A program made the position numbers and the translations under genes. A stretch of DNA of 64,000 nt. It comes from an uncultured Veillonellaceae bacterium (GTDB taxonomy: Bacteria; Bacillota; Negativicutes; JARBTT01). Every line of letters starts with the position of its first letter. Positions within the stretch are counted from its first letter, which is position 1. The DNA is taken from NCBI GenBank assembly GCA_963805085.1, contig CAWDTA010000002.1, positions 1,591,478 through 1,655,477 on the forward strand. The letters are read 5' to 3'. The notes below the pieces were generated by a model. That model made no database searches. It was not told the DNA's origin and worked only from the letters and a program-made list of their open reading frames with translations. Below, in pieces: positions 3,553 to 19,415 of the stretch.

Positions 3553-4416
3553 TGTCACGGGGACGGGGTTACTGACAACGTTTTTGCTGTGAAATAAGAT
3601 CAACTGGGGGTGTAATGCATGGCGAGAAAGGCTAGAGAGAAAAGCGAAAGTGAAATTTATCATATAATTATGAGGGGAATAAACCGACAGACGATTTTTG
3701 AGGATGAAGAGGATTGTACCCAATTTCTTCAAACGCTCCAGAGATACAAAGAAAAAAGCGGATACCAAATTTATGCCTATTGTTTGATGGGAAATCATGT
3801 GCACCTGCTGTTGAAAATTGGACTAGAACCATTAGAACAAGTGATGCGGCGGCTATGTGGCAGCTATGTATATTGGTATAATAGTAAGTATCAGAGAGTA
3901 GGCAATCTATTTCAGGATCGATTTAAAAGCGAACCAGTAAAAGACGATGAATATTTTCAAATTGTGCAAAGATATATACATCAAAATCCAGTAAAAGCAG
4001 GGATGGTAAAACATGCGGAAGAATATAAATGGAGCAGCTTTTATGAATATGTAAATAAGGCAGATTTGGTAGATGTAAATTTCTCTCTTGGAATGATAAG
4101 CAATGATAGAGGAAAGGCAATACAGACTTTCATGCAATATACCAATGAAGTGAATGATCATGCATGTATAGATATAGATAACGAAACCAAACTGCGAATT
4201 ACAGACGAAGAAGCAAGGGCTATAATAAAAACAGAATGTAGAGTAAAGAACGTAAAAGATTTACAGAATCTTGATGCAATAACAAGAAATGAATACTTAA
4301 GAAAGCTAAAAAGTAAATATAACTTATCAATTCGACAAATTGAAAGAATTACGGGTATTAACAGAGGTATTGTTTTAAAAGCATGAAGCGATGTCAATAA
4401 CCCCGTCCCCTTGACA
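3553..4416 (+). mobile_element. Y1 (IS200-like / REP-associated-type) transposase unit bounded by 25-nt inverted repeats
   Basis: Left TGTCACGGGGACGGGGTTACTGACA (3553-3577). Right TGTCAATAACCCCGTCCCCTTGACA (4392-4416), whose reverse complement matches the left repeat at 23/25 positions. Confidence 0.6.
3619..4386 (+). CDS. IS200-like Y1 transposase-domain protein with C-terminal HTH region
   Basis: 255 aa. N-terminal YHIIMRGINRQ..IYAYCLMGNHVHLLL (HuH motif) and ..YIHQNPVKAGMV..YKWSS (Tyr region), typical of Y1_Tnp/RayT-like proteins. C-terminal ...LSIRQIERITGINRGIV is HTH-like. Confidence 0.75.
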   Translation: MARKAREKSESEIYHIIMRGINRQTIFEDEEDCTQFLQTLQRYKEKSGYQIYAYCLMGNHVHLLLKIGLEPLEQVMRRLCGSYVYWYNSKYQRVGNLFQDRFKSEPVKDDEYFQIVQRYIHQNPVKAGMVKHAEEYKWSSFYEYVNKADLVDVNFSLGMISNDRGKAIQTFMQYTNEVNDHACIDIDNETKLRITDEEARAIIKTECRVKNVKDLQNLDAITRNEYLRKLKSKYNLSIRQIERITGINRGIVLKA

Positions 4417-4488: not shown

Positions 4489-4839
4489 ATGGAGGATAAG
4501 CATATTAAACTATTATTTATATGCAGTAAAAATAGATGGCGAAGCTTGACAGCGGAAAAAGTGTTTCAGGGTATTAATGGTTATGAAGTGAAGTCGGCAG
4601 GGACAGAGGAAAAAGCCCGTATTAAAGTAACGGGCGGACATATCGGCTGGGCAGATTTAATTTTTGTAATGGAAAAGAAACATGTAAGAAGGTTACAAGA
4701 GAAATTCAGGGATAGTCTTGATAATAAGAAAATTGTGTGTCTTAATATCCCTGATGATTATCAATTTATGGATCGTGAATTAATTGAAATTCTGATATCT
4801 ACAGTTTCAGAATATATTGAATTACCGATAACGATTTAG
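4489..4839 (+). CDS. small low-molecular-weight phosphotyrosine-phosphatase-like protein
   Basis: 116 aa. N-terminal P-loop LLFICSKNRWRS (C-X5-R-S). No clear RBS. Confidence 0.6.
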   Translation: MEDKHIKLLFICSKNRWRSLTAEKVFQGINGYEVKSAGTEEKARIKVTGGHIGWADLIFVMEKKHVRRLQEKFRDSLDNKKIVCLNIPDDYQFMDRELIEILISTVSEYIELPITI

Positions 4840-5395
4840 CTCATAGGGGGACAGTAACCTGTCGTGCGCCACGAAAGCGAAGATGCTTAAGCATCTCTAT
4901 GCTTAACTAGAGATGGAGGAAGGCCCTCCGAAGTCGCCATACAGGTGGAGACTTCAAACCACCGTAAGCTGCTGCGGTCAAAAGCCGTGGTGGTGAGCGT
5001 TACGGGAAAAGGCGAAACAAGATTTCGTTAGGTAAGTGCCAATGGAGACGAACAAAATTGAACCGCTGTAGAAGTATCGAAACTTGCAAATGTCGTCAAA
5101 ACCGGGTTCTGACAGGTAGTCCGGGATGAATCTGGAGGAAACCTGATTACTGTCCAGATGGCGTCCGGTATAGAGGCGGCGTGAACGTGGCACAGGCTTT
5201 AGTTAGGAACGTGGGAACCTACGACCCTGATGATAAAGGAAAAGTCTCAAGCGGAGAACCCGCAAGGACGAAAGTACAGATGCAGGGTATAGGGGCGGAA
5301 CAGTCTGTAGTAGTGATGAAAATCCGTAATGGGAATGGAGCAAAGGGACTGTGTTATCTAGTTTTGAACACTGGTCAACCAAAAGGGAGGAGCCT

Positions 5396-6644
5396 ATGAA
5401 CAAAACAAAACCGTTTGAAATTTCCAAGAAAGTAGTAATAAAAGCATACGAACAAATAAAAGCGAATAAGGGAACAGCGGGAATTGATGGTGTATCTGTA
5501 GAAAAATTCGAAAAAAAACATGAAAAATAACTTGTATAAACTGTGGAATCGAATGTCATCAGGATGTTACTTTCCTTCTCCTGTCAAAGCGGTAGAAATA
5601 CCGAAGAAAAGTGGAGGGAAAAGAACACTTGGCATACCAACGGTAACCGACCGAATCGCTCAGATGGTAGTCAAACTATACTTTGAACCAGAAGTAGAAC
5701 CATATTTTAGTCAAGATTCCTATGGTTATAGACCTGGAAAGTCAGCAATAGACGCAATTGATATAACTAGGAGAAGATGTTGGAAATATGATTGGGTATT
5801 AGAGTTCGACATTAAAGCATTGTTTGATAACATAGACCATGAGCTACTTATGCGTGCGGTAACTCAGCATACGGATAATCAGTGGATTATTCTGTATATT
5901 ACCAGATGGTTAAGTAGTCCATTTCAAACATCCGAAGGCAAAACCATAGAGCGAACAGCCGGCACACCACAAGGTGGAGTAATCAGTCCAGTACTAGCAA
6001 ATCTATTTTTGCACTATGCATTTGACAAATGGATGGAAAGGAGCAATCCCCAGAATCCGTGGGCGAGATATGCAGATGATGGGATAATCCACTGTAAAAC
6101 TAAAGAAGAAGCAGAAAAACTACTCATAGGATTAAAGGGAAGATTTGCAGAATGCAAATTAGAGCTGCATCCAGATAAAACGAGAATTGTTTACTGTAAA
6201 GATGAAAAGCGTACAGGTGACCATCAACATATACAATTTGATTTCTTAGGATACACTTTCCGCCCAAGAAGCTCACAGAGCAAGAACGGTGAGCGATTTC
6301 TCAATTTCCTACCAGCAGTAAGCAATAAAGCTGTAAAAGCAATGGGGCAAACCATAAGACAATGGAAAATCCATCGGATGACAGAAAAGGAACTGGTGGA
6401 TATAGCCCAGATGGTCAATCCTGTAGTTAGAGGTTGGATAAACTATTACGGCTGTTTTTACAAATCAGCAATGAATGTAATATTACACAAACTAAATTGG
6501 ACACTGATTAGATGGATGGTAAAGAAGTATAAGAGACTAAAATCTAGCAAAAGACGTGCCCGAAACAAGCTAAGGGAAATGGCACAGAGCAAGCAGAAAT
6601 TATTTGTTCATTGGCGAATGGAAATTATTCCAACGGTTAGATGA
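5396..6644 (+). pseudogene. group II intron reverse transcriptase/maturase, split by a +1 frameshift in an A8 run
   Basis: A 44-codon ORF (MNKTKPFEISKK...GIDGVSVEKFEKKHEK*) in frame 2 continues in frame 0 as MKNNLYKLWNRMSSG.... The run G-A8-C lies at 5510-5519; removing one A gives a continuous protein of about 415 aa. RT motifs include YADDGIIHC, and an X/maturase-like C-terminus follows. Confidence 0.8.
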
Positions 6645-6647
6645 TGG

Positions 6648-6718
6648 GAGCCGGATGAATTGAGAGGTTCAAGTCCGGTTCTGAGAGAGCCTGAGGGTGA
6701 AACTCCCTCGGGCTACTT
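6648..6718 (+). ncRNA. group II intron domains V and VI
   Basis: DV is GAGCCGGAUGAAUUGAGAGGUUCAAGUCCGGUUC, with the AGC triad, a GAGA (GNRA) tetraloop and a 2-nt AA bulge. DVI stem 6685-6697/6705-6718 has an unpaired A at 6715. Confidence 0.85.
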
Positions 6719-6960
6719 GCCCCTGTGTCCCATTGAAATCCCGACAATTTTATTTGATAAAGCAATGAAGAATATAATAAAAAATCTTGTACCAATACGG
6801 CCAAATAGAAGTCTTCTCGAAGAGAGACTTCAAGAAAAAATAAATATCCAGTTAACAAGAAATGCTGTCAAAGAGGATTATAACCTTTCTTTGGCTTCTT
6901 TAAAGTTTTCAAGGGTGAAAACTTTATGCTTGCATTTTGTCCAAAAATGGTATATATTTG

Positions 6961-7000
6961 AATTGTAATTAATTGCAATTAATTACAATTAATTGCGATT
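6961..7000. repeat. four tandem 10-bp AATTRYRATT units
   Basis: AATTGTAATT AATTGCAATT AATTACAATT AATTGCGATT, with 10-bp (one helical turn) phasing. The second unit is a perfect palindrome. Confidence 0.7.
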
Positions 7001-7630
7001 ATGGATGGATTTTCTTATAAGGTCAGCGTCAAGAAAGTGCTAATTTAATACTTTGCTGTATTTTGGATGAAGGTAGCTCTTTAGAGCTGGTTTGTAGGAG
7101 CAGATTTCAACTGCTTCAGTCCGAAAGGTTGCGGTGGTGAATGTTATGGAAAAATACGGGATATATTTCGACATGTATGGCTTAGAGAGACGAACGAAAG
7201 TAAACCATTTTATTTGTAGAAAAATGTAAAGCTTATTCGCAAAATAAAGTGAAAATTGACAGAGAAATATAATGTAAATAATAAAAATATAATTATTATT
7301 ATAAAATATTTGGAAAACAAGAAAGAATGGCTGTATGTGGCACTTTGGCCTGTCTGGAACTAGTACTGTAACCACCCATTTCTTATTTGAGGGTTCTTTA
7401 TTTCTAAAGGAAGCAGAAAAATTTTGTTTCGTGATACAGAAAATGAAAAGGAACAGGCTGAAAAAAGGTAGAGAGTGCCAATACCTCGTCCCCCTGCCAC
7501 GTCGAATTGGCAGGATAGTGTTTTTGACGTATCTGTAAGAGCATTATGGTGTTTGTTGGGTTGCGTTAACTACACTTATACTTTTAGGATTTATTTTTGA
7601 CATTCTAAGTAGATTGGCAAAATAAATTAA

Positions 7631-7644
7631 TTTGTCGCGACAAA
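7631..7644. promoter_or_regulatory. perfect 14-bp palindrome in the lasso precursor leader (candidate operator or 5'-UTR hairpin)
   Basis: TTTGTCGCGACAAA lies 42 nt upstream of the precursor ATG. A TTGACA hexamer sits at 7597-7602. Confidence 0.35.
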
Positions 7645-7686
7645 AAATTAAGGTTAAATTTTAACTGAAAGAAGGGAGGGTGCAGA

Positions 7687-7794
7687 ATGAAAAAGTATCA
7701 AGCTCCTAAAGTTATAGTGCTTGGCAATGTCCTTGAGTTGACACTGGGCTGGGGAATGTATGGTAAAAAGGATATGACAAACTGGTATTATTAA
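7687..7794 (+). CDS. lasso peptide precursor (35 aa): leader MKKYQAPKVIVLGNVLELTL, core GWGMYGKKDMTNWYY
   Basis: Not in the ORF track. GAAGGGAGGG RBS 6 nt upstream of the ATG. The leader fits YxxPx(L/V)x3Gx5Tx, with Thr at -2. The core starts with Gly and its only acidic residue is Asp9. Bulky W13/Y14/Y15 follow. The gene sits directly upstream of the cyclase. Confidence 0.85.
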   Translation: MKKYQAPKVIVLGNVLELTLGWGMYGKKDMTNWYY

Positions 7795-7800
7795 GCAATA

Positions 7801-7835
7801 AAATATCGCCATGGGACATTCCCATGGCGATATTT
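7801..7835 (+). terminator. attenuator-type hairpin between the precursor and cyclase genes
   Basis: Perfect 15-bp stem AAATATCGCCATGGG / CCCATGGCGATATTT with a 5-nt loop, followed by TATAA. It lies 7 nt after the precursor stop and 21 nt before the cyclase ATG. Confidence 0.7.
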
Positions 7836-7855
7836 TATAATGCAGGAGGTCTTTT

Positions 7856-9697
7856 ATGCGTAATTTTTGTGGGTTATTGCCTAAAATTGATACAAGAAAT
7901 GCTCCTGATATTGAATTTTATGGAAAAAACATGGGAGATATAATTAGGCCTTTATGGGTAGAACCGCCTTATAGAGAGCAATCATTTTTAAGGATAAAAG
8001 AAAAACCGTATGAATGTATTTTGATTGGTAATTTTTTTGCAAAAAAAGAGGAAATTAAGACAATTTTTTATAAGTGTATTAAGAATTCAAATTATACTGA
8101 ATTGATTACTTTGCCAGGTAATTATAATTTGATCGTTCATGAAAATGAAAATACGTTAATTTTTTCAGATATAACTGGTCTCAAGCCTGTGTTTTTTACT
8201 GATTATAATAATCAGTTTATTGCATATTCGTCATCTAGTCTTATATTACAACAGTTAATAAATGCAGAGATAAATACTGACTGGATTTCCAAATTTTTGA
8301 TTTGCCCTGGAATACAGGAATTGTTACAAGACCAATCTCCATTTCAAAATATAAAATGTATATTACCAGGACATTTTCTTTTCTTTTCTCCTAACAAAAC
8401 CCAATATTTTCCTTATTGGATTCCACCGCCTGGAGAAAAGAATATTACTGATGTTTCTAATAAATTAAAAACGCATCTTTTAATGGGCATAAATAATCGA
8501 GTCTCGATGTATGGGGAAAATATGTCGGCTGATTTAAGTGGAGGTTTAGATTCTACAAGTTTATCCGTATTGGCCGCGAAAATGATGGATAAAAAGGGAC
8601 AAACCTTGAATACGATTACATATGGAAGTACTTCTGAAAGAGAAGATACTATTTATGCCCAAAAAGTTGCTTCAAAATTTGCAAATATTAATTCTAATAT
8701 TTTAGGAGTACATGAATTTCCTTCAGCTTTTAGTAATTTAGAAATTCCTTTAACAGACGAACCACTCATAAACGCAACTACATTCGGAAACTTTTACTAT
8801 GGTTTTAATTTTATTAAAGCAATGAACTCGGAACTTCATCTTAGTGGTGAAGGTGCAGATGCGGTTCTTTTATCTCCATATTCTTATTTGGCTGATTTGA
8901 TTTTAAAGAGAAAAATAAAAACACTTTTTAGCCATATCAATGGATGGGCAAAAGTAAAAAACATTTCGCAAGGATTTTTAATCAAAAGCGCATTCATGCT
9001 TAGTATAACTAAATACCAACATTGGGCTAAAAAACAATCTATAAATCTGCAAAGAAATCAAAACAAACAAAATATTTTTGAATTGGGTTGGTTTCAAGCC
9101 CCCCAAAAAGCTAGCTGGCATACTGATGAAGCAGTGAGAGTTATTGTTTCTTTGTTAAAAACACATTCGATAACAGGTATTCCGTTTTCTGAAAAGCCGG
9201 GACAACATGAAGCTTATTCTAATATTTTGGCTATTGGTCGTACGTCAAGAGTGCTTCAACAGGTAGCAGGAGCATATGACGTTAATTTAGATTTTCCATA
9301 TTTAGATGCCATGATTGTTGATACTTGTTTACAAGCAAAGACAGAAGACCGCAATAATCCATTTCTTTTTAAACCATTGCTCTATCATTCTTTAAAATCC
9401 GATATTCCAGAGTTTATTTTATCGAGAACAACTAAAGGAGATTATACCGATGACTTATATAAAGGAATTCAAAAAAATCTCAATACTGTTATTAATTTGT
9501 TCCAAGAGTCGTACCTGCATAATTTAGGATTAATTTGTTCGAATACTTTAATAGAAGCGGCTAAAACATTTAATATGGGATTGGATGTTGGACTTTGTCA
9601 ATTTTGCAATACAGTAGCAGCAGAATTATGGATAAGAAATATTAAATCTAATCAACAACAGTATTGGAGGAAAAAATATGTTGCCAACAAAACTTAA
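7856..9697 (+). CDS. lasso peptide cyclase (asparagine synthetase-like macrolactam synthetase, C protein)
   Basis: 613 aa with the PP-loop motif SADLSGGLDSTS. GCAGGAGG RBS. Position in the cluster fits. Confidence 0.8.
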   Translation: MRNFCGLLPKIDTRNAPDIEFYGKNMGDIIRPLWVEPPYREQSFLRIKEKPYECILIGNFFAKKEEIKTIFYKCIKNSNYTELITLPGNYNLIVHENENTLIFSDITGLKPVFFTDYNNQFIAYSSSSLILQQLINAEINTDWISKFLICPGIQELLQDQSPFQNIKCILPGHFLFFSPNKTQYFPYWIPPPGEKNITDVSNKLKTHLLMGINNRVSMYGENMSADLSGGLDSTSLSVLAAKMMDKKGQTLNTITYGSTSEREDTIYAQKVASKFANINSNILGVHEFPSAFSNLEIPLTDEPLINATTFGNFYYGFNFIKAMNSELHLSGEGADAVLLSPYSYLADLILKRKIKTLFSHINGWAKVKNISQGFLIKSAFMLSITKYQHWAKKQSINLQRNQNKQNIFELGWFQAPQKASWHTDEAVRVIVSLLKTHSITGIPFSEKPGQHEAYSNILAIGRTSRVLQQVAGAYDVNLDFPYLDAMIVDTCLQAKTEDRNNPFLFKPLLYHSLKSDIPEFILSRTTKGDYTDDLYKGIQKNLNTVINLFQESYLHNLGLICSNTLIEAAKTFNMGLDVGLCQFCNTVAAELWIRNIKSNQQQYWRKKYVANKT

Positions 9698-11450
9698 AAC
9701 AGTTTTGTATACATTGAAATTAGCTTGGGATACTAACCGCGTTATGGCGTTTTTTTTAGTAGCATTACTGTTTATACAAGCAATTATGGGCGTTGCTGTT
9801 TTATGGACAATGGGACGCATAATCAACGAAATTGTCGCAAATCAATTCAGTTTAATAACTATAGCTATGCTTGTATCAACATTAGCAATGACTTTAATTT
9901 TTCCTACAGTTTTTCAAATAGCTCAGAGCATTTTTATGGATAAAGCTAGTATACATGTTGGTTATCGTTTTTTGCAATCAATTCTTTCGATGGTTACGAT
10001 AGAAGAATTAGAAAAACCAAAATTTTTTCAACAAGTCACAAATGTTCGTCAGCGACTACAAAGAGATCTGGCTGGAGTAATTATATTTGTTTCTTATGGG
10101 GCGCAAAACCTTTTAATGGGGACAGTGTTGCTAATTGTTCTCGGAATGTATTCCTGGCCATTAGTTTTTTTTCTTTTATTTACACTTATTCCTCGTGCAC
10201 AAATAGAATTGGAATTTGTTTCTATGACAGATGAAACACTTGAAATGAACGACCCAGAAGCACGACGTCTTAGCGCAATAAGAAATAGTATGTTAAGCCG
10301 TGATACGGTAATGGATGCATTGATACATAATATTGCAGATTTATTAACGAAAACTTATGAAAATTTGTTTGATGATGTATCCAAAAAAATTAATCGAGAA
10401 CGAAATCGTATACTGAACAATGTTTTATGGCGAACTCTGATTTTTGTTGCAGGTCCTACTATTTCAATTGCTTGGATTATTACACAGAAAGATATTAATG
10501 CCGGTAATGTTTTTTTATATATTAGTGCTATTTTGGCAATGGGAATGTCAATCTTAAATGGGTTTTATAATGTAGGCGTAGCCATGCGTATTTCTTCTTT
10601 TGCGAATGAAATTAAAGCAACATTAGATATGGACATTAAAAAGAAAGCTAAAGCTATTCCAGTAGATTCGAATGAATTTTCCGTTCAAATTCAGGATTTG
10701 TGGTTTAGATATAATACTGATACAGAACCGCTGTTACAAGGAATAAACCTGACAATAAACCACGGTGAATGTATTGCGCTAGTTGGTGAAAATGGGGCTG
10801 GAAAAACAACATTAATAAAATTGATTTCGGGATTATATTATCCAGATAAAGGAAATATAAAGATTAATAATTCTTTACTAATACCAGATAATATACCCTC
10901 CTTTCGTAACGAAATGGCGGTTTTAACTCAGGATTATCTTCGCTTTGCTGGCACTGTGGCGGAAAATATAACTTTTGGTCTATGTCGAGATGAAGAAAAG
11001 CTAATCTCTGTATTAAAAGATGTTGGACTATATTCGTTTGTTGAACAGTTACCCAATAAATTAGATACTTCTTTATCAGGCTCATTTGGAGGAACAGAAT
11101 TATCAGGAGGTCAGTGGCAAAAAATTGCCTTAGCTCGTGTTCTGTATCGTTCACCTAAATGCTTAATTCTTGATGAACCATTAGCGTCTTTAGATGTAGA
11201 ATCAGAAGTGGAGTTTTATCAGGCAATTCGCCGTTGGAGTAAAGGGCGTACTGTTATTATTGTGTCTCATCGATTAGCAGTTAACCAATTTGTAGATCGA
11301 ATTTTGTTTTTAAAAGACGGAAAAATTGTTCAAGACGGAACACATACTAACCTAATGCAAGAACAAGGATATTATTCTGAACTTTACATAAAGCAACTTT
11401 ATAATCTTGGTTTGCTAGAAAAGGAGGGAAGAATTAAGGATGAAATATAA
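9678..11450 (+). CDS. ABC transporter permease/ATPase half-transporter (lasso D-type exporter, subunit 1)
   Basis: 590 aa. N-terminal multi-TM region. Walker A GENGAGKTT, signature LSGGQWQK, Walker B LILDEP. Overlaps the cyclase gene by 20 nt. Confidence 0.85.
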   Translation: MLPTKLKTVLYTLKLAWDTNRVMAFFLVALLFIQAIMGVAVLWTMGRIINEIVANQFSLITIAMLVSTLAMTLIFPTVFQIAQSIFMDKASIHVGYRFLQSILSMVTIEELEKPKFFQQVTNVRQRLQRDLAGVIIFVSYGAQNLLMGTVLLIVLGMYSWPLVFFLLFTLIPRAQIELEFVSMTDETLEMNDPEARRLSAIRNSMLSRDTVMDALIHNIADLLTKTYENLFDDVSKKINRERNRILNNVLWRTLIFVAGPTISIAWIITQKDINAGNVFLYISAILAMGMSILNGFYNVGVAMRISSFANEIKATLDMDIKKKAKAIPVDSNEFSVQIQDLWFRYNTDTEPLLQGINLTINHGECIALVGENGAGKTTLIKLISGLYYPDKGNIKINNSLLIPDNIPSFRNEMAVLTQDYLRFAGTVAENITFGLCRDEEKLISVLKDVGLYSFVEQLPNKLDTSLSGSFGGTELSGGQWQKIALARVLYRSPKCLILDEPLASLDVESEVEFYQAIRRWSKGRTVIIVSHRLAVNQFVDRILFLKDGKIVQDGTHTNLMQEQGYYSELYIKQLYNLGLLEKEGRIKDEI

Positions 11451-13224
11451 ATTTGCCGAAAGAATTACTGCAATTAAAAACTGGGTAAGCAGTTTTTTAA
11501 TCAATCTTAAACTTGCGTTTAATGTTGATCTAAAAAGTACTTTAATTTTAATTTTTTCTGCTTTTATTACCGGCATTGCACCAGTTGTCTTAGCTATTAC
11601 AACTGGAATGGTGGTTGGACAATTTATTCCTGGGTCTGCAGCTTCCATAGGTAAAATAATTATAATATATACTGTAACTTACAGTATGCTACAATTTGGT
11701 CATATAGGAGTGGTGTCTCAACGTGGGCGACTGGCGGAAAGAATTACGAGAACTATGAGTGAGCAAATTATGAAATTGCCGCCAAAATGGATAGGAGTAG
11801 AACATTTCGAGAATAAAGAAATATACGATAAAATAGCAACAGTTGATAATTTAATTGGGAGTATGGCATCAGTTTTTTTTGTACAAGCAATAACTTCGGC
11901 AATAACATGTCTTGGCACATTTGTTCTTCTATGGGTAATAGATTGGCGTATAGCGATATTATCATCAATAGTTATAATACCTCTAGCTGTTTGGCAAGCA
12001 AAAGAGTCAAGAAAATCGCAAATTGATATCCAGATGTTGTCTCCTAATTATAGACGAATCAATTATCTACTTGAACTATCAACAGAAATAAAGACAGCAA
12101 AAGAAATAAAATTATTAAATGCTGAAAAATTTATTCTTGATAATTATCAAAAGCACAGCGAATCAATTCTGAAAGAACTTTTGTATATACGATTAAAAGA
12201 AGGCATAAAGTCAATATCAGGTACGATTATTTGCGGATTATCTTTAGGCGTGATATGTGGACTTATAGTGTTTTGGTCAATTGATAGTCAATTGGATCCT
12301 GTTAAATTAGCGATTTTTTTTGTTGCAATTAAAGAGGGACAACAAGCAGTGGGGCAAGTATATTCATTTATGTGGGCATTTTCCACTTTAACGTTATTTT
12401 TCTCTACGATGATAGAAATGCAAAAATTTGAGGGATTGCCACAAGGAACACAAAATATAACAGAAATAGAGTCCTTGGCAACTAATAATATAAGTTTTAC
12501 ATATCAAGGAAGAAATCGGGCAGCACTTTCCGAAATTAATATTAGTATTAATCGAGGAGAAATTTTAGTTATTGTTGGTGAAAATGGCGCGGGGAAAAGC
12601 TCTTTAATTAAACTTCTTACTCGTATGTATGATCCGAAAGAAGGAACACTCAATATTAATGGTAATGATTTGAAACAATTTGATACTACCAGCTATAGAA
12701 ATTTACTGGGTGTTTCTTTGCAAGATGTGGGCAGATTTCCGTTAACTCTGAAAGAAAATATTTTCTTCGATAAAAATGATTGTACGGAAAACGTGAAAGA
12801 AGTATTCAAAAAAATAGATATGGAGACTTATCTTGCAAAACTGCCTAAAGGTGGAGATGAATTGGTAGGGCGGCAATGGGGTGGTATTGAGATGTCAGGA
12901 GGTCAATGGCAAAAAATAGGATCTGCGCGGGTGTTTGCTAGACCTAATACAGATTTACTGATTATGGATGAGCCAAATACATTTTTGGATGCACATGCTG
13001 AGGCGGCTTTGCTTGATAATATAGTAAAATATATCCGAAATAATAATCTGAGCTGCATTTTCATTACTCATCGTTTAGGTGCAGCACGAATAGGTGATCG
13101 TATTCTCGTTATGCATGACGGAAAGATTGTTGAGTCTGGAACACACGCGGAGCTAATAAAAAATCAAGGGAAATATTCAAAATTATGGAGTATACAGAAA
13201 GAACAGTATCAGTTAGTTGATTAA
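11440..13224 (+). CDS. ABC transporter permease/ATPase half-transporter (subunit 2)
   Basis: 594 aa. TM region, Walker A GENGAGKSS, signature MSGGQWQK, Walker B LLIMDEP. Overlaps the upstream ABC gene by 11 nt. Confidence 0.85.
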   Translation: MKYKFAERITAIKNWVSSFLINLKLAFNVDLKSTLILIFSAFITGIAPVVLAITTGMVVGQFIPGSAASIGKIIIIYTVTYSMLQFGHIGVVSQRGRLAERITRTMSEQIMKLPPKWIGVEHFENKEIYDKIATVDNLIGSMASVFFVQAITSAITCLGTFVLLWVIDWRIAILSSIVIIPLAVWQAKESRKSQIDIQMLSPNYRRINYLLELSTEIKTAKEIKLLNAEKFILDNYQKHSESILKELLYIRLKEGIKSISGTIICGLSLGVICGLIVFWSIDSQLDPVKLAIFFVAIKEGQQAVGQVYSFMWAFSTLTLFFSTMIEMQKFEGLPQGTQNITEIESLATNNISFTYQGRNRAALSEINISINRGEILVIVGENGAGKSSLIKLLTRMYDPKEGTLNINGNDLKQFDTTSYRNLLGVSLQDVGRFPLTLKENIFFDKNDCTENVKEVFKKIDMETYLAKLPKGGDELVGRQWGGIEMSGGQWQKIGSARVFARPNTDLLIMDEPNTFLDAHAEAALLDNIVKYIRNNNLSCIFITHRLGAARIGDRILVMHDGKIVESGTHAELIKNQGKYSKLWSIQKEQYQLVD

Positions 13225-13260
13225 ATAAGCGTTTTCATTAAAAATGCGGGAGGAATATTG

Positions 13261-13527
13261 ATGAAAAACCTTCGTATGCCAGAACATGTAAAAATCAGCT
13301 CTTTTGAAGGAAAGGCTATTTTGTTAGATTCGCGTAACAATATGTATTATTGTTTGAACGAAAGTGCGTTAGAGTTTTTGGATATTTTTAGTAATGTTCA
13401 ATCTTTTGAACAGGCCGTGGAAGATTTTGTGAAAAAATATGAAGGTGTATCTATTGAGCAAATAAAACAGGATATGCGAGATTTATTTACAGAATTAATA
13501 AATGCTGGGTTGCTTGAACATTTCTAA
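13261..13527 (+). CDS. PqqD-family leader-recognition protein (lasso B1 / RRE)
   Basis: About 88 aa. ..AILLDSRNNMYYCLNESALEFLD.. resembles PqqD/RRE proteins. GCGGGAGGA RBS before ATG 13261. Confidence 0.7.
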   Translation: MKNLRMPEHVKISSFEGKAILLDSRNNMYYCLNESALEFLDIFSNVQSFEQAVEDFVKKYEGVSIEQIKQDMRDLFTELINAGLLEHF

Positions 13528-13551
13528 ACTTTATGGAAGGAGAATATAATA

Positions 13552-13974
13552 ATGACTAAGCAAATGGCTTGGAATTCATTAGATTTAGATTTAAATTTAT
13601 TAGAATATATTCAAGGATTATTCTCTATAATATTAGCTTATATTCTATTACATGGCTTTTCGTTAGAAAAACTAAGAAAATTATTATTAACTGTAACAAA
13701 AAAAAGAATGAAGGAAGAATACAGTTTTGATGAAGCTATTAGAGTATGGCTGGCTATTAGAAAATCTCAAAAATTTTTGTTACTAAGAGTAGCTTGTATG
13801 GAACAATCATTAGCATTTGTTATTTTTTCTATTTTAAAAAGAAAACGTGTTTTATGGTGCATTGGAGCCAAATTAAATCCGTTTGAAGCACATGCATGGA
13901 TTGAAATAGAAGGAGAGCCTTTTCAAGAACCGGATTATTCAAAACGACAGTTTCAAAAATTATTTGTTACTTGA
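13552..13974 (+). CDS. lasso peptide leader peptidase (B2, transglutaminase-like Cys protease)
   Basis: 140 aa. ACMEQSLAF (candidate Cys), FEAHAWIE (His) and a downstream Asp, in the order expected for a lasso B2 catalytic triad. GGAAGGAG RBS. Confidence 0.75.
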   Translation: MTKQMAWNSLDLDLNLLEYIQGLFSIILAYILLHGFSLEKLRKLLLTVTKKRMKEEYSFDEAIRVWLAIRKSQKFLLLRVACMEQSLAFVIFSILKRKRVLWCIGAKLNPFEAHAWIEIEGEPFQEPDYSKRQFQKLFVT

Positions 13975-14206
13975 AGATAATAAATTAACCCACAATAAAA
14001 AAACAATCACACTAAAGTGCGTGTTGTCTTTTGAATTGACACAAAACGCGTTGTTAGTAGGCTTTGAGACAATCTAAAAGACACATCATAGATCCGAGGT
14101 GATAAAATGTGATTGGCAAAAGGTTATTGAGTCGGGATAAGAAAAATAAGTAAGGAGATTTCATAGTATTTATGTACTAAAGTTGCTATTGAAAGGGATT
14201 GCCTAT

Positions 14207-14953
14207 ATGATAGATAAATCTGGATTTGTATCTGAATTATTGATTAATATAAGAAGAGAAAATATAAATCAATATCCTTATAATCTTGATGTTTTAAAAA
14301 ATTTGAATAAGTTGGTTTTAAATGAAAAAGTAACATTTTTAGTTGGAGAAAATGGAACGGGGAAATCAACGCTAATTGAAGCTATTGCGATTGCCTATGG
14401 ATTTAATCCGGAAGGTGGTTCTATAAATTTTAATTTTTCAACTAGATTTTCTTCATCTCAACTTTACAAAAACATAAGGATTAGAAAAACATTAAATCAT
14501 CCTAAAGATGGATATTTTTTAAGAGCAGAAAGCTTTTACAATGTTGCAACAAATATTGAAGAAATGGATGATATTCCATCAGGAACAAAAAAAATTATTG
14601 AATCATATGGTGGTAAATCGCTGCATGAACAATCACATGGTGAATCATTTTTTTCCCTTTTTTTAAATAGATTTAGAGAAAATGGCTTTTATATTTTAGA
14701 TGAACCAGAAGCCGCTCTTTCGGTAGAAAGACAATTGACATTTGTTTCACGATTACATGAACTAGTCGAAAACAATTCCCAGTTTGTTATTGCTACTCAT
14801 TCACCGATTATATTATCCTATCCCAATTCAACAATATATGAAATTGGGCAAGATGGTCTCAACATAGTAACTTACGAAGATACAGAACAATATAAATTTA
14901 TGAAGTTATTTATTAATAATTATCCTAATATTCTAAAGAAAGTAATGGATTGA
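14207..14953 (+). CDS. stand-alone ABC/SMC-like AAA ATPase (COG3910-like)
   Basis: Walker A GENGTGKST, Q-loop/signature-like HEQSHGES, Walker B FYILDEPEAALS, ATHSP switch. The start is uncertain (ATG 14207 versus TTG 14183). Confidence 0.7.
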   Translation: MIDKSGFVSELLINIRRENINQYPYNLDVLKNLNKLVLNEKVTFLVGENGTGKSTLIEAIAIAYGFNPEGGSINFNFSTRFSSSQLYKNIRIRKTLNHPKDGYFLRAESFYNVATNIEEMDDIPSGTKKIIESYGGKSLHEQSHGESFFSLFLNRFRENGFYILDEPEAALSVERQLTFVSRLHELVENNSQFVIATHSPIILSYPNSTIYEIGQDGLNIVTYEDTEQYKFMKLFINNYPNILKKVMD

Positions 14954-15097: not shown

Positions 15098-15310
15098 GGC
15101 TAAAAAGCACATTAACTACCTACAATGATTAGATACAACATGCACACTTGGTATCCCTGGGGCGAAGAAAGAGCTATTCTTGCCAATTCAGGCCGGCGTT
15201 CTTGTACTATCCGTGACTCTAAGGGACGGTTTGTTAAAGGTTCAATCGGAAGTTTTGCGCGGCAAAAAGTTCAACGTGCATATGAGTTACTGCAGGTTGA
15301 GCCTCTAATT
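15098..15310 (+). pseudogene. degraded N-terminal remnant of a DUF255/YyaL-type thioredoxin-domain protein
   Basis: ...HINYLQ* is followed by a frame change to YNMHTWYPWGEE, resembling the conserved SPYLLQHAHNPVxWYPWGEEAF N-terminus. The reading frame collapses afterwards. Confidence 0.4.
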
Positions 15311-15869
15311 TTTTACGCGCAAAATTTTTGATTGCCTCAGAAGAAGGAAATCGCGGCTGGTTTGGCTATGGATTTTCAATCGTCTGCTATCCATTATTTT
15401 TATCTTTTCTAGGCGTAAAAAACATTTTTAGCTTAGCTTTTTAGCTGCCAATTGATTTAGCGATAGCTAGTTTTTCGCAATTTGAATATAACTTCCCCCC
15501 TCCCCGCTATTTGGTCTTGATAAAAAAATGTAATTTTAATCTATTTTATAGGGATGCCCCATAAAAAGCGAATAAGCCATTGTCAGTTTTTCCTTGTCGC
15601 ATACAGGACACAGGGTTACATCTTTGCTAGTAAGAATTAATATACAAAGGGACGGTTGTAATTGTCTTTATTTTACTGATTTGGTATGGGAATCTGCGGC
15701 AAACTACTAAAGCATAGAGGGACAGAAACGCTGTCCCTAATATCGATGTTTGCTGAGTTTTAACCCAATTCACAATGCAACCTCCAACCTCTCCCCATGC
15801 CCCGATAGTGCTTACTATTGACATTATAAAAAGCAAGACGTATACTTTTAATTAGATTTTAATAAAGAT

Positions 15870-16110
15870 ATCTGAAAAGCGATGATTAGGAAGAGTATTC
15901 ATGCTAGGTAGTGGACAGAGAGTGGGGATGGTTGAGAACCTGCGACGATTGGTATGAGGAAAATCACCTGAGAGCTGATGGCTGAAAGTGGAGTAAGTCA
16001 ATTCGTATTCCTGCGTTAAAGGATAAGGTATGTTAGTACCTGAATGCATGATTAGGTGGTATAACGAGGTAGAAGCTTCGTCCTGAAAAGGGCGAAGCTT
16101 TTTGTGTTTT
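15870..16110 (+). promoter_or_regulatory. T-box leader (Ile specifier) controlling ileS
   Basis: AGAGAG box and GGUUGAGAACC distal element. AUC followed by A at 15963-15966 in GAAAAUCACC. T-box core UUAGGUGGUAUAACGAGG. Terminator GAAGCUUCGUCC..GGGCGAAGCUU plus U-tract (16072-16104). Confidence 0.8.
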
Positions 16111-16147
16111 ATTGAGCATAATAAATAGAAGAAAAGGAGTTTTAAAC

Positions 16148-19100
16148 GTGTATAAAAAAGTGGATTCCAAAACCAATTTTGTGAATATGGAAAAATCTGT
16201 TCTTGCGTTATGGGAAGAAAAAGACATTATAAACAAAAACTTTCAGATGAATGAGGAGGGTGAATATTTTACCTTCTACGATGGCCCGCCAACAGCGAAT
16301 GGTGTACCGCATATTGGTCATGTCGTTACTCGGGTTATTAAGGATCTTATCCCGCGTTATAAAGTAATGAAGGGTTATAAGGTTTTACGTAAGGCAGGTT
16401 GGGACACGCATGGCCTCCCAGTTGAACTTGAGGTGGAGAAAAATCTTGGTATATCCGGCAAGCCGCAAATCGAAGAGTATGGTGTGGAAAAATTTATAAA
16501 GAAGTGTAAAGATAGCGTATTTACCTATGCAACTCAGTGGAAAGATATGTCCGAACGAGTGGGTTACTGGATTGATATGGAGAAGCCTTATGTTACCTAT
16601 GAAAATGAATATATTGAATCGGTATGGTGGTCTTTGAAACAACTTTGGGATAAAGAATTGCTATACAAAGGACATAAAATTGTTCCGTATTGCCCACGAT
16701 GTGGGACAGCGCTGTCTTCACATGAAGTTGCCCAAGGCTATAAGGATGTTAAGGATAGCTCTGCTTATGTGAAATTTAAACTGAAGGGTAAAAATGTTTC
16801 TATTTTGGTTTGGACGACAACCCCTTGGACGTTGCCAAGTAATGTAGCGCTTGCTGTTAATCGCAAATATGATTATGTGGAAATCATCAATCAGGAAGAG
16901 CATTTAATCCTTGCCAAAGCATTACTTAACCAAATTGAAGGTGAATATGAGGTAGTTCGAGAGTTTAAAGGAGAAGAGCTTCTTGATCATGAATATGAGC
17001 CTATATTCTCTTTTGTTACGCCTGAGAAAAAAGCTTACTACGTTGTGCATGGAGATTTCGTAACGCTCAGTGATGGTACGGGGATCGTTCATATTGCACC
17101 TGCTTACGGTGAAGATGATAATCGGCTTGGACAAAAATATGATCTGCCTTTGGTAAATCTAGTGGATGTTCAGGGAAACTTTGTAGAAGAAGTTACGCCT
17201 TGGCAGGGGATGTTTGTGAAAAAAGCAGATGAAAAAATCATTGTAACGATGAAGAACAATGGTGCTCTCTATAAAACAGAAAAGTATCTTCATTCCTATC
17301 CTTTCTGCTGGCGCTGTGATACACCGCTTTTATATTATCCAAGAGATTCGTGGTTCGTAAAGATGTCCTCATTACGCGATAATCTCTTGAAAAATAATGA
17401 TAAAATCAACTGGTATCCTGACAATATCAAGAACGGACGTTTTGGTAATTTCTTAGAAAATGTGATTGATTGGGGACTAAGTCGGGAACGTTATTGGGGT
17501 ACGCCTCTACCAATATGGGAATGCGAATGCGGGCATAGGGAGTGCATTGGCAGCATTGCAGAATTACGAGAAAAGGGAATCCAGGTGCCAGAGGGTCTCG
17601 AACTGCATAAACCTTATATTGATGCTGTAGCATTGCAATGTCCTCATTGTGCAAAAGAAATGAAAAGAGTAAGTGAGGTTATTGATTGTTGGTACGATTC
17701 TGGTTCAATGCCGTTTGCTCAATACCATTTTCCTTTTGAGAATAAAGAATTGTTTGAACAAAATTTTCCTGCCCAATTTATATCGGAAGCAGTCGATCAG
17801 ACGAGAGGTTGGTTTTACACACTTCTCGCTATATCTACGGCTATATTTGACAAGAGTTCTTTTGAAAACTGTATCGTTCTGGGACATGTGCTAGATAAAA
17901 ACGGCATTAAAATGTCAAAACATAAAGGAAACGTTTTAAGTCCATTTACAGTCTTGGAAAATGAAGGGGCCGATGCTTTGCGGTGGTATTTTTATACCGC
18001 CAGTGCGCCTTGGCTTCCATCAAGATTTTATGAAGATGCAGTAATTGACGTTCAACGTAAATTTTTGAATACCTTATGGAATGTATATTCTTTCTATGTC
18101 CTGTATGCTGAGATTGACCAGTTTGATCCGACGAAGTATCAAGAGAGAGAAAGCCAGCATGTCATGGATAAGTGGATTATATCTAAGCTTAATACGATGA
18201 TCCATAAAGTCGATGAAAATTTGGATGCGTATAATATCACTGGAGCAGCAGAACTTATCCAAGAGTTTACTGAGGAATTGTCAAACTGGTATGTGCGGAG
18301 AAATAGAACTAGATATTGGGTTATGGATATGACAGAGGATAAGATTGATGCTTATCTTACCTTGCATACTGTGTTAAAGAATCTAGTCATCGTGGCAGCG
18401 CCTTTTGTACCATTTATCACGGAAGAAATTTATCAAAATCTGGTCGTACGCCTAAATGCGGCGGAACCGGAGAGCGTTCATTTGTGCAGATGGCCTGTTT
18501 ATGATGAAAAACTCGTTGATCGGCAGTTGGAAACTGAGATGGAGTTGACTTACCAAATCTGTGGTCTTGGCCGGAGTGCAAGAAATGTGGCCAATATTAA
18601 AAACAGACAACCTCTTTCGAAGATGCTGCTCAGTACGAAGAACTTACCTGACTATTATATCGACATCATCAAAGAAGAATTGAATATAAAGAGCGTAGAA
18701 GTCAACGCCAACATGGCTGATTATGTAAGTTATACCGTAAAACCAAATTCGCCAGTGTTAGGGAAAACCCATGGTAAGTTTATACCTAGCATTAGAAAAG
18801 CGATTGCAGAGATGGATCAAATGGCATTAGCGTTGAAAATTTTAAATGGTGAGACACTTACCGTAGAAATTGATGATACTGCCATCGAATTTAACGCTAA
18901 AAATTTGTTGATCTCAATGAATGGTCTAGAGGGCTTTGCTTTCGCTGGCGAAGGTGAAGTTGGCGTTGTGCTTGATACCCATATCTCTGAAAGCTTGAGA
19001 GTTGAAGGGTATGCGCGCGAAATCATCAGCAAAATCCAAACGATGAGAAAAGATAGTTCTTTTGAGGTAATGGACAAGATTACAATCTATATGACAGGGA

Positions 19101-19349: not shown

Positions 19350-19415
19350 GAGGAAATAATAGAACTTCTGATATCTTCGATTTCAGAGCATATTGAATTA
19401 CCGATAACAATGTAA
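19350..19415 (+). pseudogene. 3'-terminal remnant of a paralog of the 4489-4839 phosphatase gene
   Basis: Translates to EEIIELLISSISEHIELPITM*, versus DRELIEILISTVSEYIELPITI* at 4777-4839. Long identical nucleotide runs (ATTGAATTACCGATAAC). No upstream coding part. Confidence 0.75.

What the first reader, a model, noticed from the sequence alone, without database searches (positions are those of the whole stretch)
7597..13974. Complete lasso-peptide biosynthetic gene cluster (A-C-D-D-B1-B2) in a diderm spore-former
Six co-directional, tightly packed genes (overlaps of 20 and 11 nt, gaps under 65 nt) encode every component of class II lasso peptide biosynthesis. They are a 35-aa precursor, an Asn-synthetase-like cyclase with the SGGLDS PP-loop, a heterodimer-style pair of ABC half-transporters for export/immunity, a PqqD-like RRE (B1) and a Cys/His/Asp leader peptidase (B2). 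The gene order is unusual: both transporters sit between C and the split B, and there is no kinase, isopeptidase or other tailoring gene. The host context (Negativicutes-like, with an outer membrane) is one from which I know of no characterised lasso peptide. The cluster is much more AT-rich by eye than the flanking housekeeping genes.
Basis: partly seen in the sequence, partly recalled or inferred. Interest (0 to 1): 0.88.

Follow-up and report, generated by a model that had tools for sequence, protein, structure and literature searches.

The report
Lasso peptide gene cluster in Pelosinus
This is a genuine, intact gene cluster for a small knotted ("lasso") peptide, carried on a laterally acquired 7.5-kb block in a Pelosinus bacterium; it is a new example of a well-known kind of natural-product pathway, with an unusual gene order, and not a new kind of system.

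Summary
The host is a Pelosinus (Negativicutes).

The precursor is MKKYQAPKVIVLGNVLELTL|GWGMYGKKDMTNWYY. It carries the YxxPxV leader motif and Thr at -2. Asp9 is the only acidic core residue, so a Gly1-Asp9 ring is predicted (lasso M = 1880.80 Da).

The cluster is part of a 7.5-kb AT-rich block (7479-14950) that also holds an ABC-type ATPase gene. A 94%-identical copy of this block lies in a different genomic context. dN/dS between the two copies is 0.09-0.23 for all six genes. Three other Pelosinus species lack the block upstream of ileS.

The nearest cyclases are at most 45% identical and are cyanobacterial-type (A-C-B1-B2-D, often with a PIMT-like methyltransferase). The C-D-D-B1-B2 order occurred only in the window and its near-copy: 2 cyclase genes against 76 followed directly by B1/B2.

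Thousands of lasso clusters are already predicted, about 16% of them in Bacillota. This is therefore a new member of a known kind, of moderate interest.

The parts
7479..14950 (.). AT-rich 7.5-kb block (GC 0.32) holding the whole cluster plus an ATPase gene. The same block occurs 94% identical in a different genomic context (L032).
   Evidence: blastn: window 7479-14950 = L032 442-7913, 93.95% over 7475 nt, with unrelated flanks. The block is absent upstream of ileS in three Pelosinus species.
7597..7686 (+). Upstream control region: -35-like TTGACA (7597-7602), perfect 12-bp palindrome TTGTCGCGACAA (7632-7643, possible operator), and Shine-Dalgarno GGGAGG (7674-7679) 7 nt before the ATG.
   Evidence: Sequence read directly. 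The region is almost identical in L032. Promoter function is inferred only; the consensus scan found no more sites than in shuffled sequence.
7687..7794 (+). Precursor A: leader MKKYQAPKVIVLGNVLELTL, core GWGMYGKKDMTNWYY.
   Evidence: NF033521 lasso_leader_L3 scores 19.5 bits (cut-off 19). The leader has YxxPxV and Thr at -2. The 17-aa leader motif is shared with 14 other precursors of the clade, all with D/E at core position 8 or 9. dN/dS is 0.17 against L032.
7798..7838 (+). Perfect 19-bp inverted repeat (hairpin) between A and C, followed by a U-rich stretch. Likely a partial terminator or mRNA stabiliser that sets the ratio of A to enzyme transcripts.
   Evidence: Folding gives -31.7 kcal/mol, z = -6.7, with 0 of 200 shuffles as stable. 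Listed as inverted repeat I9. Conserved in L032, with one change in the loop only. The function is inferred.
7856..9697 (+). Lasso cyclase C (Asn-synthetase-like, ATP-dependent macrolactam synthetase).
   Evidence: PF00733 2.6e-19; NF033561 scores 287 bits against a cut-off of 300. D226-L-S-G-G-x-D-S233 is invariant in 18 homologs. The AlphaFold2 model has pLDDT 89.9, and its best PDB fold matches are TsnB9, beta-lactam synthetase, carbapenam synthetase and AsnB at E 1e-13 to 1e-16.
9678..11450 (+). ABC half-transporter D1 (membrane domain plus ATPase domain). It overlaps C by 20 nt.
   Evidence: PF00005 3.3e-33. Walker A, signature, Walker B with Glu, and H-loop are all canonical, with about 5 hydrophobic segments. 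It is 31% identical over 588 aa to the D gene of the cyanobacterial-type lasso cluster L002, which equals its best hit anywhere apart from the near-copy of the cluster.
11440..13224 (+). ABC half-transporter D2. It overlaps D1 by 11 nt.
   Evidence: PF00005 6e-26 and PF00664 1.2e-8. The ATPase motifs are canonical. It is 29% identical to the L002 D gene and only 23% identical overall to D1.
13261..13527 (+). B1, a PqqD-like RiPP recognition element (88 aa from the ATG at 13261; the TTG at 13258 is the alternative start).
   Evidence: PF05402 1.6e-9, 38.4 bits against a cut-off of 23.4. NF033530 lasso_PqqD 9.6e-12, below its cut-off. Gene calls in L001 and L032 use the ATG.
13552..13974 (+). 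B2, a transglutaminase-like cysteine leader peptidase.
   Evidence: PF13471 6.8e-15. NF033537 lasso_biosyn_B2 scores 59.4 bits against a cut-off of 33. Cys82, His114 and Asp128 are invariant in 9 homologs.
14207..14953 (+). Stand-alone ABC-type (AAA_15/AAA_21) ATPase of 248 aa, co-inherited with the cluster. Its role is unknown and it is probably not a core lasso gene.
   Evidence: It lies inside the block shared with L032 and is 95% identical at the protein level. It belongs to a very large 'AAA family ATPase' family with at least 56% identity across phyla. There is no significant RNA structure or terminator between B2 and this gene. PADLOC hits are generic.

Best explanation
The region is a functional class II lasso peptide biosynthetic operon in a Pelosinus genome. 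The proposed mechanism follows.

1. The 35-aa precursor is translated from a strong ribosome-binding site. A stable hairpin after its stop codon probably lets more A transcript accumulate than enzyme transcript.
2. B1 (an RRE) binds the YxxPxV...T(-2) leader and presents it to B2.
3. The Cys82/His114/Asp128 triad of B2 cuts after Leu20 and frees Gly1 of the core GWGMYGKKDMTNWYY.
4. C adenylates the side chain of Asp9, the only acidic core residue, through its PP-loop. It then joins Asp9 to the Gly1 amine while the tail is pre-threaded. The product is a 9-residue ring with a 6-residue loop and tail, held by the bulky Trp13, Tyr14 and Tyr15. Predicted monoisotopic mass is 1880.80 Da.
5. D1 and D2, translationally coupled to C, form a heterodimeric ABC exporter that secretes the peptide and thereby probably protects the producer.

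What is shown: the gene content, the catalytic motifs, conservation of the precursor family, purifying selection, and the mobile-block context. What is inferred: the cleavage site, the ring position, threading, the heterodimer, the export/immunity role and any bioactivity.
For: Curated profile hits for A, C, B1 and B2.

The PP-loop of C and the triad of B2 are invariant across homologs.

The AlphaFold2 model of C (pLDDT 89.9) matches ATP-dependent amide- and lactam-forming AsnB-family enzymes at E down to 2.5e-16.

The leader fits the [Y/W]xxPx[L/V/I/F/A] plus Thr(-2) rule for discrete lasso RREs (PMC6784204 and PMC13381572).

Fourteen unique cores of the same clade all have D/E at position 8 or 9.

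A second copy of the cluster, 94% identical, encodes a variant core GFGMFGNKDMTNWYY that keeps G1, D9 and the tail. dN/dS is 0.09-0.23 for all six genes.

Gene overlaps and Shine-Dalgarno sites indicate a single operon.

The hairpin is strongly stable, z = -6.7.

D1 and D2 have complete canonical ATPase motifs. Each is about 30% identical to the D gene of a related lasso cluster.
Against: There is no experimental evidence of expression, cyclisation or threading.

C scores just under the NF033561 cut-off (287 against 300). A is below the lasso_cyano cut-off (19.4 against 33).

No convincing sigma-70 promoter was found; the number of consensus sites is no greater than in shuffled sequence.

Only six residues follow the 9-residue ring, which leaves little room for loop plus tail.

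No sequence-level relative of C, B1 or B2 has a solved structure. The single-sequence B2 model was unusable, at pLDDT 40.

The export and immunity role of D1/D2 rests on analogy only.
Confidence: 0.88

Rival explanations
1. The core A-C-B1-B2 genes make the lasso peptide, but D1/D2 (and the trailing ATPase) are passengers. On this reading they are a generic heterodimeric multidrug or lipid exporter that landed inside the operon, and not a dedicated lasso exporter or immunity system.
For: In 76 related cyclase genes, C is followed directly by B1/B2. Only the window and its near-copy have D-D in between, which looks like an insertion. D1's best non-self hit (31%) is a tandem ABC pair in a non-lasso context, L033/L034. 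NCBIfam's best matches are generic (MsbA and similar), far below their cut-offs.
Against: D1 overlaps C by 20 nt and D2 overlaps D1 by 11 nt, so translation is coupled to the cyclase. D1/D2 are as similar to the D gene of lasso cluster L002 (31% and 29%) as to anything else in 5.8 billion proteins apart from the near-copy of the cluster. They are conserved under purifying selection together with the cluster (dN/dS 0.20 and 0.15) in both genomic contexts. Almost every related cluster has an ABC exporter somewhere.
Confidence: 0.12
2. The cluster is intact but cryptic or non-productive in this host: a recently acquired, silent island. Alternatively it yields an unthreaded branched-cyclic macrolactam and not a true lasso.
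For: The block is laterally acquired: AT-rich, next to an IS200-type transposase and a group II intron, and absent upstream of ileS in congeners. No clear promoter was found. The post-ring segment is very short, at 6 residues.
Against: All ORFs are intact, with strong ribosome-binding sites. dN/dS of 0.09-0.23 between two diverged copies shows selection on the proteins. The bulky W-Y-Y C-terminus is conserved in both variants. A conserved aromatic or bulky C-terminal end is also seen across the clade.
Confidence: 0.1
3. It is not a lasso system at all. On this reading it is another Asn-synthetase-like amide-forming pathway acting on a different substrate, and the small ORF is fortuitous.
For: C falls marginally below the NCBIfam subfamily cut-off. 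The fold matches are to non-lasso AsnB-family enzymes, because no lasso cyclase structure is in the PDB.
Against: The exact lasso quartet is present: a precursor with the lasso leader motif, an RRE, a B2 that passes an equivalog-domain model, and C. The precursor is conserved across at least 15 homologous clusters with the acceptor residue in register.
Confidence: 0.02

Closest known systems
Cyanobacterial-type lasso clusters (NCBIfam NF033528 lasso_cyano precursors; cyclases annotated 'albusnodin/ikarugamycin family macrolactam cyclase' in Tychonema, Nostoc and Komarekiella)
   Same: These are the closest relatives of C (at most 45% identity), B2 (up to 46%) and A (about 45%). They share the same 17-aa leader motif, Y-x-x-P-x-(L/V/I)-x3-G-(N/D)-(V/A)-x3-T-L. 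They share a 15-19-aa core with D/E at position 8 or 9, and a split B1/B2. The Pelosinus cyclase falls inside this clade with 100% bootstrap support.
   Different: Those clusters are ordered A-C-B1-B2-D with one D gene. Several add a PCMT/PIMT-like methyltransferase together with a D6-T7 motif in the core. The window has two D genes between C and B1, no methyltransferase and no DT motif. The Pelosinus pair sits on a long, near-basal branch whose placement has only 59% support, so the direction of transfer is unresolved.
Fusilassin/fuscanodin-type actinobacterial clusters with split B1/B2
   Same: A discrete RRE recognises a YxxPxL leader plus Thr at -2, and a separate B2 cysteine protease and an AsnB-like cyclase complete the pathway. 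This mechanistic model is the one adopted here (PMC6784204; PMC13381572).
   Different: There is no detectable close sequence relationship: actinobacterial cyclases are 20-24% identical. The host phylum and gene order also differ.
Paeninodin-like lasso peptides, the characterised Firmicutes/Bacillota examples
   Same: Same phylum (Bacillota), split B1/B2, and an ABC transporter in the cluster (PMC8498205).
   Different: Paeninodin-type precursors use a WxxP leader, end in Ser and are phosphorylated by an HPr-kinase homolog. The window has YxxP, a C-terminal Tyr and no kinase, nucleotidyltransferase or sulfotransferase.
Microcin J25 system (McjABCD)
   Same: A dedicated ABC exporter is encoded with the biosynthetic genes and is presumed to provide export-based self-protection. 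This point rests on my own knowledge of McjD and was not tested here.
   Different: That system has a fused B protein, a single homodimeric D and a proteobacterial leader type (I/V/LxxxA; PMC6784204). Here B is split and there are two distinct half-transporters, only 23% identical to each other.

Membership tests
Lasso peptide biosynthetic gene cluster (RiPP class) | Precursor with a leader carrying the RRE-binding [Y/W]xxPx[L/V/I/F/A] motif and Thr at position -2 | tested here: met
   The leader MKKYQAPKVIVLGNVLELTL has Y4-x-x-P7-x-V9 and T19 at -2. NF033521 scores 19.5 bits against a cut-off of 19. The motif definition comes from PMC13381572 and PMC6784204.
Lasso peptide biosynthetic gene cluster (RiPP class) | Core starting with a small residue (Gly, Ala, Ser or Cys) and having Asp or Glu at position 7-9 to close the ring | tested here: met
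   The core GWGMYGKKDMTNWYY has G1, and D9 is its only acidic residue. All 14 unique cores of the clade have D/E at position 8 or 9.
Lasso peptide biosynthetic gene cluster (RiPP class) | Asn-synthetase-like ATP-dependent cyclase (C) with a PP-loop | tested here: met
   PF00733 scores 70.5 bits against a cut-off of 21. SGGxDS is invariant. AsnB, beta-lactam synthetase and carbapenam synthetase fold matches reach E about 1e-15.
Lasso peptide biosynthetic gene cluster (RiPP class) | PqqD-like RRE (B1, or the N-terminal domain of B) | tested here: met
   PF05402 scores 38.4 bits against a cut-off of 23.4. The lineage-specific NCBIfam lasso_PqqD models are below their cut-offs: 45 against 70 and 22.6 against 80.
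Lasso peptide biosynthetic gene cluster (RiPP class) | Transglutaminase-like Cys/His/Asp leader peptidase (B2) | tested here: met
   NF033537 scores 59.4 bits against a cut-off of 33, and PF13471 scores 55.4 against 26. C82, H114 and D128 are invariant in 9 homologs.
Lasso peptide biosynthetic gene cluster (RiPP class) | The product is a threaded lariat (isopeptide ring with the tail passing through it) | not testable with these tools
   This needs MS/MS, protease and heat stability tests, and ion mobility or NMR on the expressed peptide.
Class II lasso peptides | No disulfide bonds (no Cys in the core) | tested here: met
   The core has no Cys.
NCBIfam NF033561 albusnodin/ikarugamycin-family macrolactam cyclase | Whole-protein score at or above the curated cut-off of 300 bits | tested here: not met
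   The score is 287.4 bits, covering model positions 36-559 of 561. This is marginally below the cut-off. Its 35-42%-identical homologs are named as members by NCBI. It works like a member but is not formally one.
NCBIfam NF033528 lasso_cyano precursor subfamily | Score at or above the curated cut-off of 33 bits | tested here: not met
   The score is 19.4 bits. The relationship is visible in the alignment but lies below the family threshold.
Lassimiditides (aspartimidylated lasso peptides) | A PIMT/PCMT-like O-methyltransferase in the cluster plus a target Asp | tested here: not met
   The window and L032 have no methyltransferase gene. The D6-T7 motif seen in the methyltransferase-bearing relatives is G6-K7 here. 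The class definition is from bioRxiv 10.1101/2023.06.21.545981.
Paeninodin-like Bacillota lasso peptides | WxxP leader, C-terminal Ser, and an HPr-kinase homolog | tested here: not met
   The window has YxxP, a C-terminal Tyr and no kinase gene. The criteria are from PMC8498205 and PMC13381572.

The most novel reading that the evidence does not exclude
This would be the founding example of a lasso peptide lineage in Negativicutes (diderm Firmicutes). It is carried on a compact, laterally mobile 7.5-kb module. In that module a heterodimeric ABC exporter has been wedged between, and translationally coupled to, the cyclase and the split protease. A co-travelling ABC-type ATPase also turns up beside another RRE-containing RiPP locus, so it might be a RiPP accessory or immunity factor. 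On this reading the product is a new antimicrobial scaffold with an export or immunity logic that differs from the single-McjD model.
Probability: 0.2. Interest if true: 0.55.

Novelty: new member of a known kind. Interest (0 to 1): 0.36.

Why it matters
If expressed, the cluster would give a new 15-residue lasso scaffold (nearest cyclase 45% identical) from a bacterial class with no characterised lasso peptide. Solved lasso peptide structures come from only three phyla, and just 2% of them are from Bacillota (PMC12214591). The two natural variants (GWGMYGKKD... and GFGMFGNKD...) already show which core positions tolerate change. The compact seven-gene block is small enough to synthesise and express directly. 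Its affinity to cyanobacterial-type clusters is also a neat case of RiPP pathway exchange between distant phyla. It does not change the understanding of how lasso peptides are made.

Tried and rejected
- **Scan of species-representative genomes with the cyclase:** no relative was found, so the cluster is absent or too divergent there. The scan method only reaches close relatives.
- **Sequence search of C, B1 and B2 against the PDB:** no usable hits.
- **Single-sequence AlphaFold2 of B2:** pLDDT 40, unusable, and not carried to a fold search.
- **Terminal direct or inverted repeats, att-like sites or tRNA genes at the block borders:** none found. The mobility mechanism is therefore unknown.
- **PADLOC on the ATPase:** only generic ABC-ATPase matches, and the D1/D2 ATPase domains hit the same models more strongly, so there is no support for a defence-system reading.
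- **Consensus promoter and terminator scan:** counts no higher than in shuffled sequence, so it was not used as evidence.
- **Check of whether the peptide is already in the LassoPred/RODEO supplementary list:** the supplements are not held.
- **First tree script:** it timed out and was redone with a faster distance method.
- **Recent tandem duplication as the origin of D1/D2:** considered and rejected. They are only 23% identical overall, and each is closer to the D gene of L002.


Full report
**1. Observation.**
- C/D1 overlap by 20 nt and D1/D2 by 11 nt. The other gaps are 61, 33 and 24 nt.
- Each gene is preceded by a Shine-Dalgarno sequence.
- B1 more probably starts at the ATG at 13261 (88 aa), as in independent gene calls on identical and near-identical contigs.
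- GC falls to 0.30-0.34 across the cluster, against 0.39-0.44 in the flanking housekeeping genes. It is 0.322 for 7479-14950 against 0.394 for the rest of the window.

**2. Profile and residue tests.**
- C hits Pfam Asn_synthase (2.6e-19, 70.5 bits, cut-off 21). It also hits the NCBIfam albusnodin/ikarugamycin-family macrolactam cyclase model almost end to end, at 287 bits against a cut-off of 300.
- B1 hits PqqD (38.4 bits, cut-off 23.4).
- B2 hits Transglut_core3 (55.4 bits, cut-off 26) and the lasso B2 equivalog-domain model (59.4 bits, cut-off 33).
- The 35-aa peptide hits the lasso leader model NF033521 at its cut-off (19.5 against 19). It hits the cyanobacterial lasso precursor model below cut-off.
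- In alignments with homologs, D226-L-S-G-G-x-D-S233 of C is invariant in all 18 sequences. Cys82, His114 and Asp128 of B2 are invariant in all 9 sequences.
- No solved structure is detectable by sequence for C, B1 or B2.
- A high-confidence AlphaFold2 model of C (pLDDT 89.9, pTM 0.91) matches the AsnB family: TsnB9, beta-lactam synthetase, carbapenam synthetase and asparagine synthetase B, at E 1e-13 to 2.5e-16. These enzymes adenylate a carboxylate and form an amide or lactam, which is the chemistry required here.
- D1 and D2 are full half-transporters. Both have canonical Walker A, signature, Walker B-Glu and H-loop motifs, and about five hydrophobic segments each.

**3. The precursor.**
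The leader is MKKYQAPKVIVLGNVLELTL and the core is GWGMYGKKDMTNWYY.
- The leader has Y4-x-x-P7-x-V9 and Thr at -2. This is the motif recognised by discrete lasso RREs (PMC6784204 and PMC13381572).
- The core starts with Gly. Its only acidic residue is Asp9, so a Gly1-Asp9 nine-residue ring is the only option.
- There is no Cys, which makes it class II.
- The predicted masses are 1898.812 (linear) and 1880.801 (lasso).
- A perfect 19-bp inverted repeat lies between A and C at 7798-7838 (-31.7 kcal/mol, z = -6.7). Its GC-rich centre is followed by a U-rich run. I infer a partial terminator or stabiliser that raises the ratio of precursor to enzyme transcript.

**4. Host and genomic context.**
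- The adjacent IleRS is 85-88% identical to that of Pelosinus baikalensis, P. fermentans and uncultured Pelosinus. Pelosinus belongs to Sporomusaceae, Negativicutes.
- In those genomes, homology to the window is confined to 15814-19249, which is ileS plus its leader. None of the lasso genes, nor the other flanking genes, is found within 10 kb.
- To the left of the cluster lie lipoate-metabolism genes, an IS200-type Y1 transposase (3619-4386) and a complete group II intron (4915-6721, RT/maturase at 5520-6644).

**5. A second copy defines the unit.**
- A search with D1 found a 93%-identical protein. Its contig, L032, carries the same A-C-D1-D2-B1-B2 genes plus the same downstream ATPase gene.
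- blastn aligns window 7479-14950 to L032 442-7913 at 94% identity over 7475 nt. Homology stops sharply on both sides. The L032 flanks are unrelated: peptidase M20 and AbgT genes at GC 0.45.
- The conserved unit is therefore a 7.5-kb block that includes the upstream control region and a 248-aa ABC-type ATPase (14207-14953).
- No terminal repeats, att-like sites or tRNA genes mark its ends.
- Between the two copies, dN/dS is 0.17 (A), 0.23 (C), 0.20 (D1), 0.15 (D2), 0.16 (B1) and 0.09 (B2). All six genes are therefore under purifying selection.
- The variant core is GFGMFGNKDMTNWYY. Gly1, Asp9 and the tail MTNWYY are unchanged, and three ring positions differ.
- The hairpin and the upstream region, including a TTGACA box, a 12-bp palindrome and the ribosome-binding site, are conserved.

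**6. Relatives.**
- Among 5.8 billion clustered proteins, the nearest cyclase outside the window's own 90%-identity cluster is 45% identical. That cluster holds two member sequences. All named close hits are cyanobacterial: Tychonema, Nostoc and Komarekiella.
- Their contigs show phycobilisome, NblA or McdB neighbours and the order A-C-B1-B2-D. Several have a divergent PCMT/PIMT-like methyltransferase.
- The precursors of these clusters share the 17-residue leader motif Y-x-x-P-x-(L/V/I)-x3-G-(N/D)-(V/A)-x3-T-L with the window. All 14 unique cores have D/E at position 8 or 9, and 12 of them at position 9.
- In a neighbour-joining tree, the Pelosinus pair lies on a long branch inside a 31-member clade with 100% bootstrap support. 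All named members of that clade are cyanobacterial. The pair is near the base, and its exact placement has only 59% support. A shared origin is clear, but the direction of transfer is not.

**7. Gene order.**
I built profiles for C, B1, B2, D and the methyltransferase from this clade. I then scanned all fetched loci, including 79 from a metagenome scan with the cyclase alignment.
- Of 95 cyclase genes, 76 are followed directly by B1/B2, and 17 have no B gene visible (contig ends and similar).
- Only two have D-D between C and B1: the window and L032.
- Some loci are near-duplicates, so these are not 95 independent observations.
- D1 and D2 are not a recent duplication. They are 23% identical overall. 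Each is about 30% identical to the D gene of lasso cluster L002, as close as to any other protein found apart from the near-copy of the cluster.

**8. The ATPase.**
- The seventh gene belongs to a huge and highly conserved 'AAA family ATPase / predicted ATPase' family. All 8000 scored candidates reached E <= 1e-10, and the 120 best listed are at least 56% identical across Clostridia, Actinomycetota and Proteobacteria.
- It is not lasso-specific. PADLOC matches are generic.
- Its 84%-identical homologs in three contigs sit 13 nt upstream of a PqqD-domain protein and a radical SAM/SPASM enzyme, which is another RiPP-like pair. Another homolog, 83% identical, sits next to LacI and LysE genes.
- There is no terminator or significant structure between B2 and the ATPase gene.
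- I treat it as co-inherited and of unknown role.

**9. What is known.**
- LassoPred (PMC12214591) cites 4,749 unique RODEO-predicted lasso peptides from 21 phyla, 15.7% of them from Bacillota. The 47 PDB structures come from three phyla, and 2.1% of them are from Bacillota.
- The characterised Firmicutes examples are paeninodin-like peptides from Bacilli, with a kinase and a WxxP leader (PMC8498205 and PMC13381572).
- Searches for lasso peptide together with Negativicutes, Pelosinus or Sporomusa found nothing relevant.
- The library covers only open-access text, and I could not search the RODEO datasets. 'Not previously predicted' therefore cannot be claimed.

**10. Verdict.**
The region is an intact class II lasso peptide operon under selection, producing a predicted Gly1-Asp9 15-mer. 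It is carried on a laterally acquired 7.5-kb block in a Pelosinus genome.

Its distinctive points are the host class, the cyanobacterial-type ancestry, the two-gene exporter inserted between C and B1, and the travelling ATPase. None of these alters the known mechanism, so it is a new member of a known kind. Interest is moderate (0.36), not 0.88.

Noticed in passing
window 4915-6721 (RT/maturase ORF 5520-6644): A complete group II intron lies about 750 nt left of the lasso block. Rfam domains D1-D4 match at 4915-5033 and D5/6 at 6646-6721, and the RT/maturase scores 393 bits to TIGR04416. An independent assembly (L001) breaks inside it, as expected for a repeated element.
   Followed up: partly
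window 3619-4386: An IS200-type Y1 transposase gene (PF01797, 4.7e-17) lies between the lipoate-metabolism genes and the group II intron. The left side of the lasso block is a mobile-element-rich variable region.
   Followed up: no
window 14207-14953; L114 8839-11780, L115, L116, L117: The co-inherited 248-aa ABC-type ATPase has 84%-identical homologs placed 13 nt upstream of a 362-aa PqqD-domain protein plus a radical SAM/SPASM enzyme, another RiPP-like pair. In a fourth contig an 83%-identical homolog sits next to LacI and LysE genes. This may be a recurrent association of the ATPase family with RRE-containing loci, or it may be coincidence.
   Followed up: partly
window 15818-16102: A T-box leader lies upstream of ileS. 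Rfam RF00230 matches 15873-16088 over the full model at 86.8 bits, E 3.8e-19, just under the gathering score of 93. It has a near-consensus promoter (TTGACA-17-TATACT, 15818-15846) and a terminator hairpin (16071-16102). This is the only upstream sequence shared with other Pelosinus species.
   Followed up: partly
window 4489-4839 and 19353-19417: A 116-aa ORF with a low-molecular-weight phosphatase-like CX5R motif ends just before the group II intron. Its last ~22 codons recur at 83% identity as an ORF-less remnant just downstream of ileS. This hints at past rearrangement around ileS.
   Followed up: partly
window 6961-7000: Four tandem copies of a 10-nt palindromic unit (AATTGCAATT-like) sit in the AT-rich spacer between the intron and the lasso block. 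Their function is unknown.
   Followed up: no
L002 352-1755, L003 8401-9803, L025 3610-5007, L118 775-1803: The cyanobacterial-type relatives carry a PCMT/PIMT-like methyltransferase next to the precursor gene. In L002, L003 and L025 the cores share Asp6-Thr7 (GYRFYDTAD.., GGGLADTRD.., GSFKSDTRD..). No precursor was retrieved for L118. These look like candidate aspartimidylated lasso peptides outside Actinomycetota, where such clusters are said to predominate (bioRxiv 10.1101/2023.06.21.545981).
   Followed up: partly
L007 (JAQSXG010000635.1, labelled 'Neobacillus sp.' MAG): This 3-kb scaffold encodes an IleRS 97% identical to the window's (94% at the nucleotide level). That is far closer than any named Pelosinus, so the scaffold is probably a mis-binned Pelosinus contig.
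   Followed up: no
L027, L036, L037, L043: Several related loci hold two lasso cyclase sets in tandem or two precursor genes. Their precursor genes lie on the opposite strand downstream of B2, a different layout from both the window and the methyltransferase-type clusters.
   Followed up: no
window 15243-15334: A 26-nt imperfect inverted repeat (81% complementary, 40-nt spacer) lies in the 1.1-kb non-coding stretch between the ATPase gene and the ileS leader. It has no Rfam family match of note.
   Followed up: no
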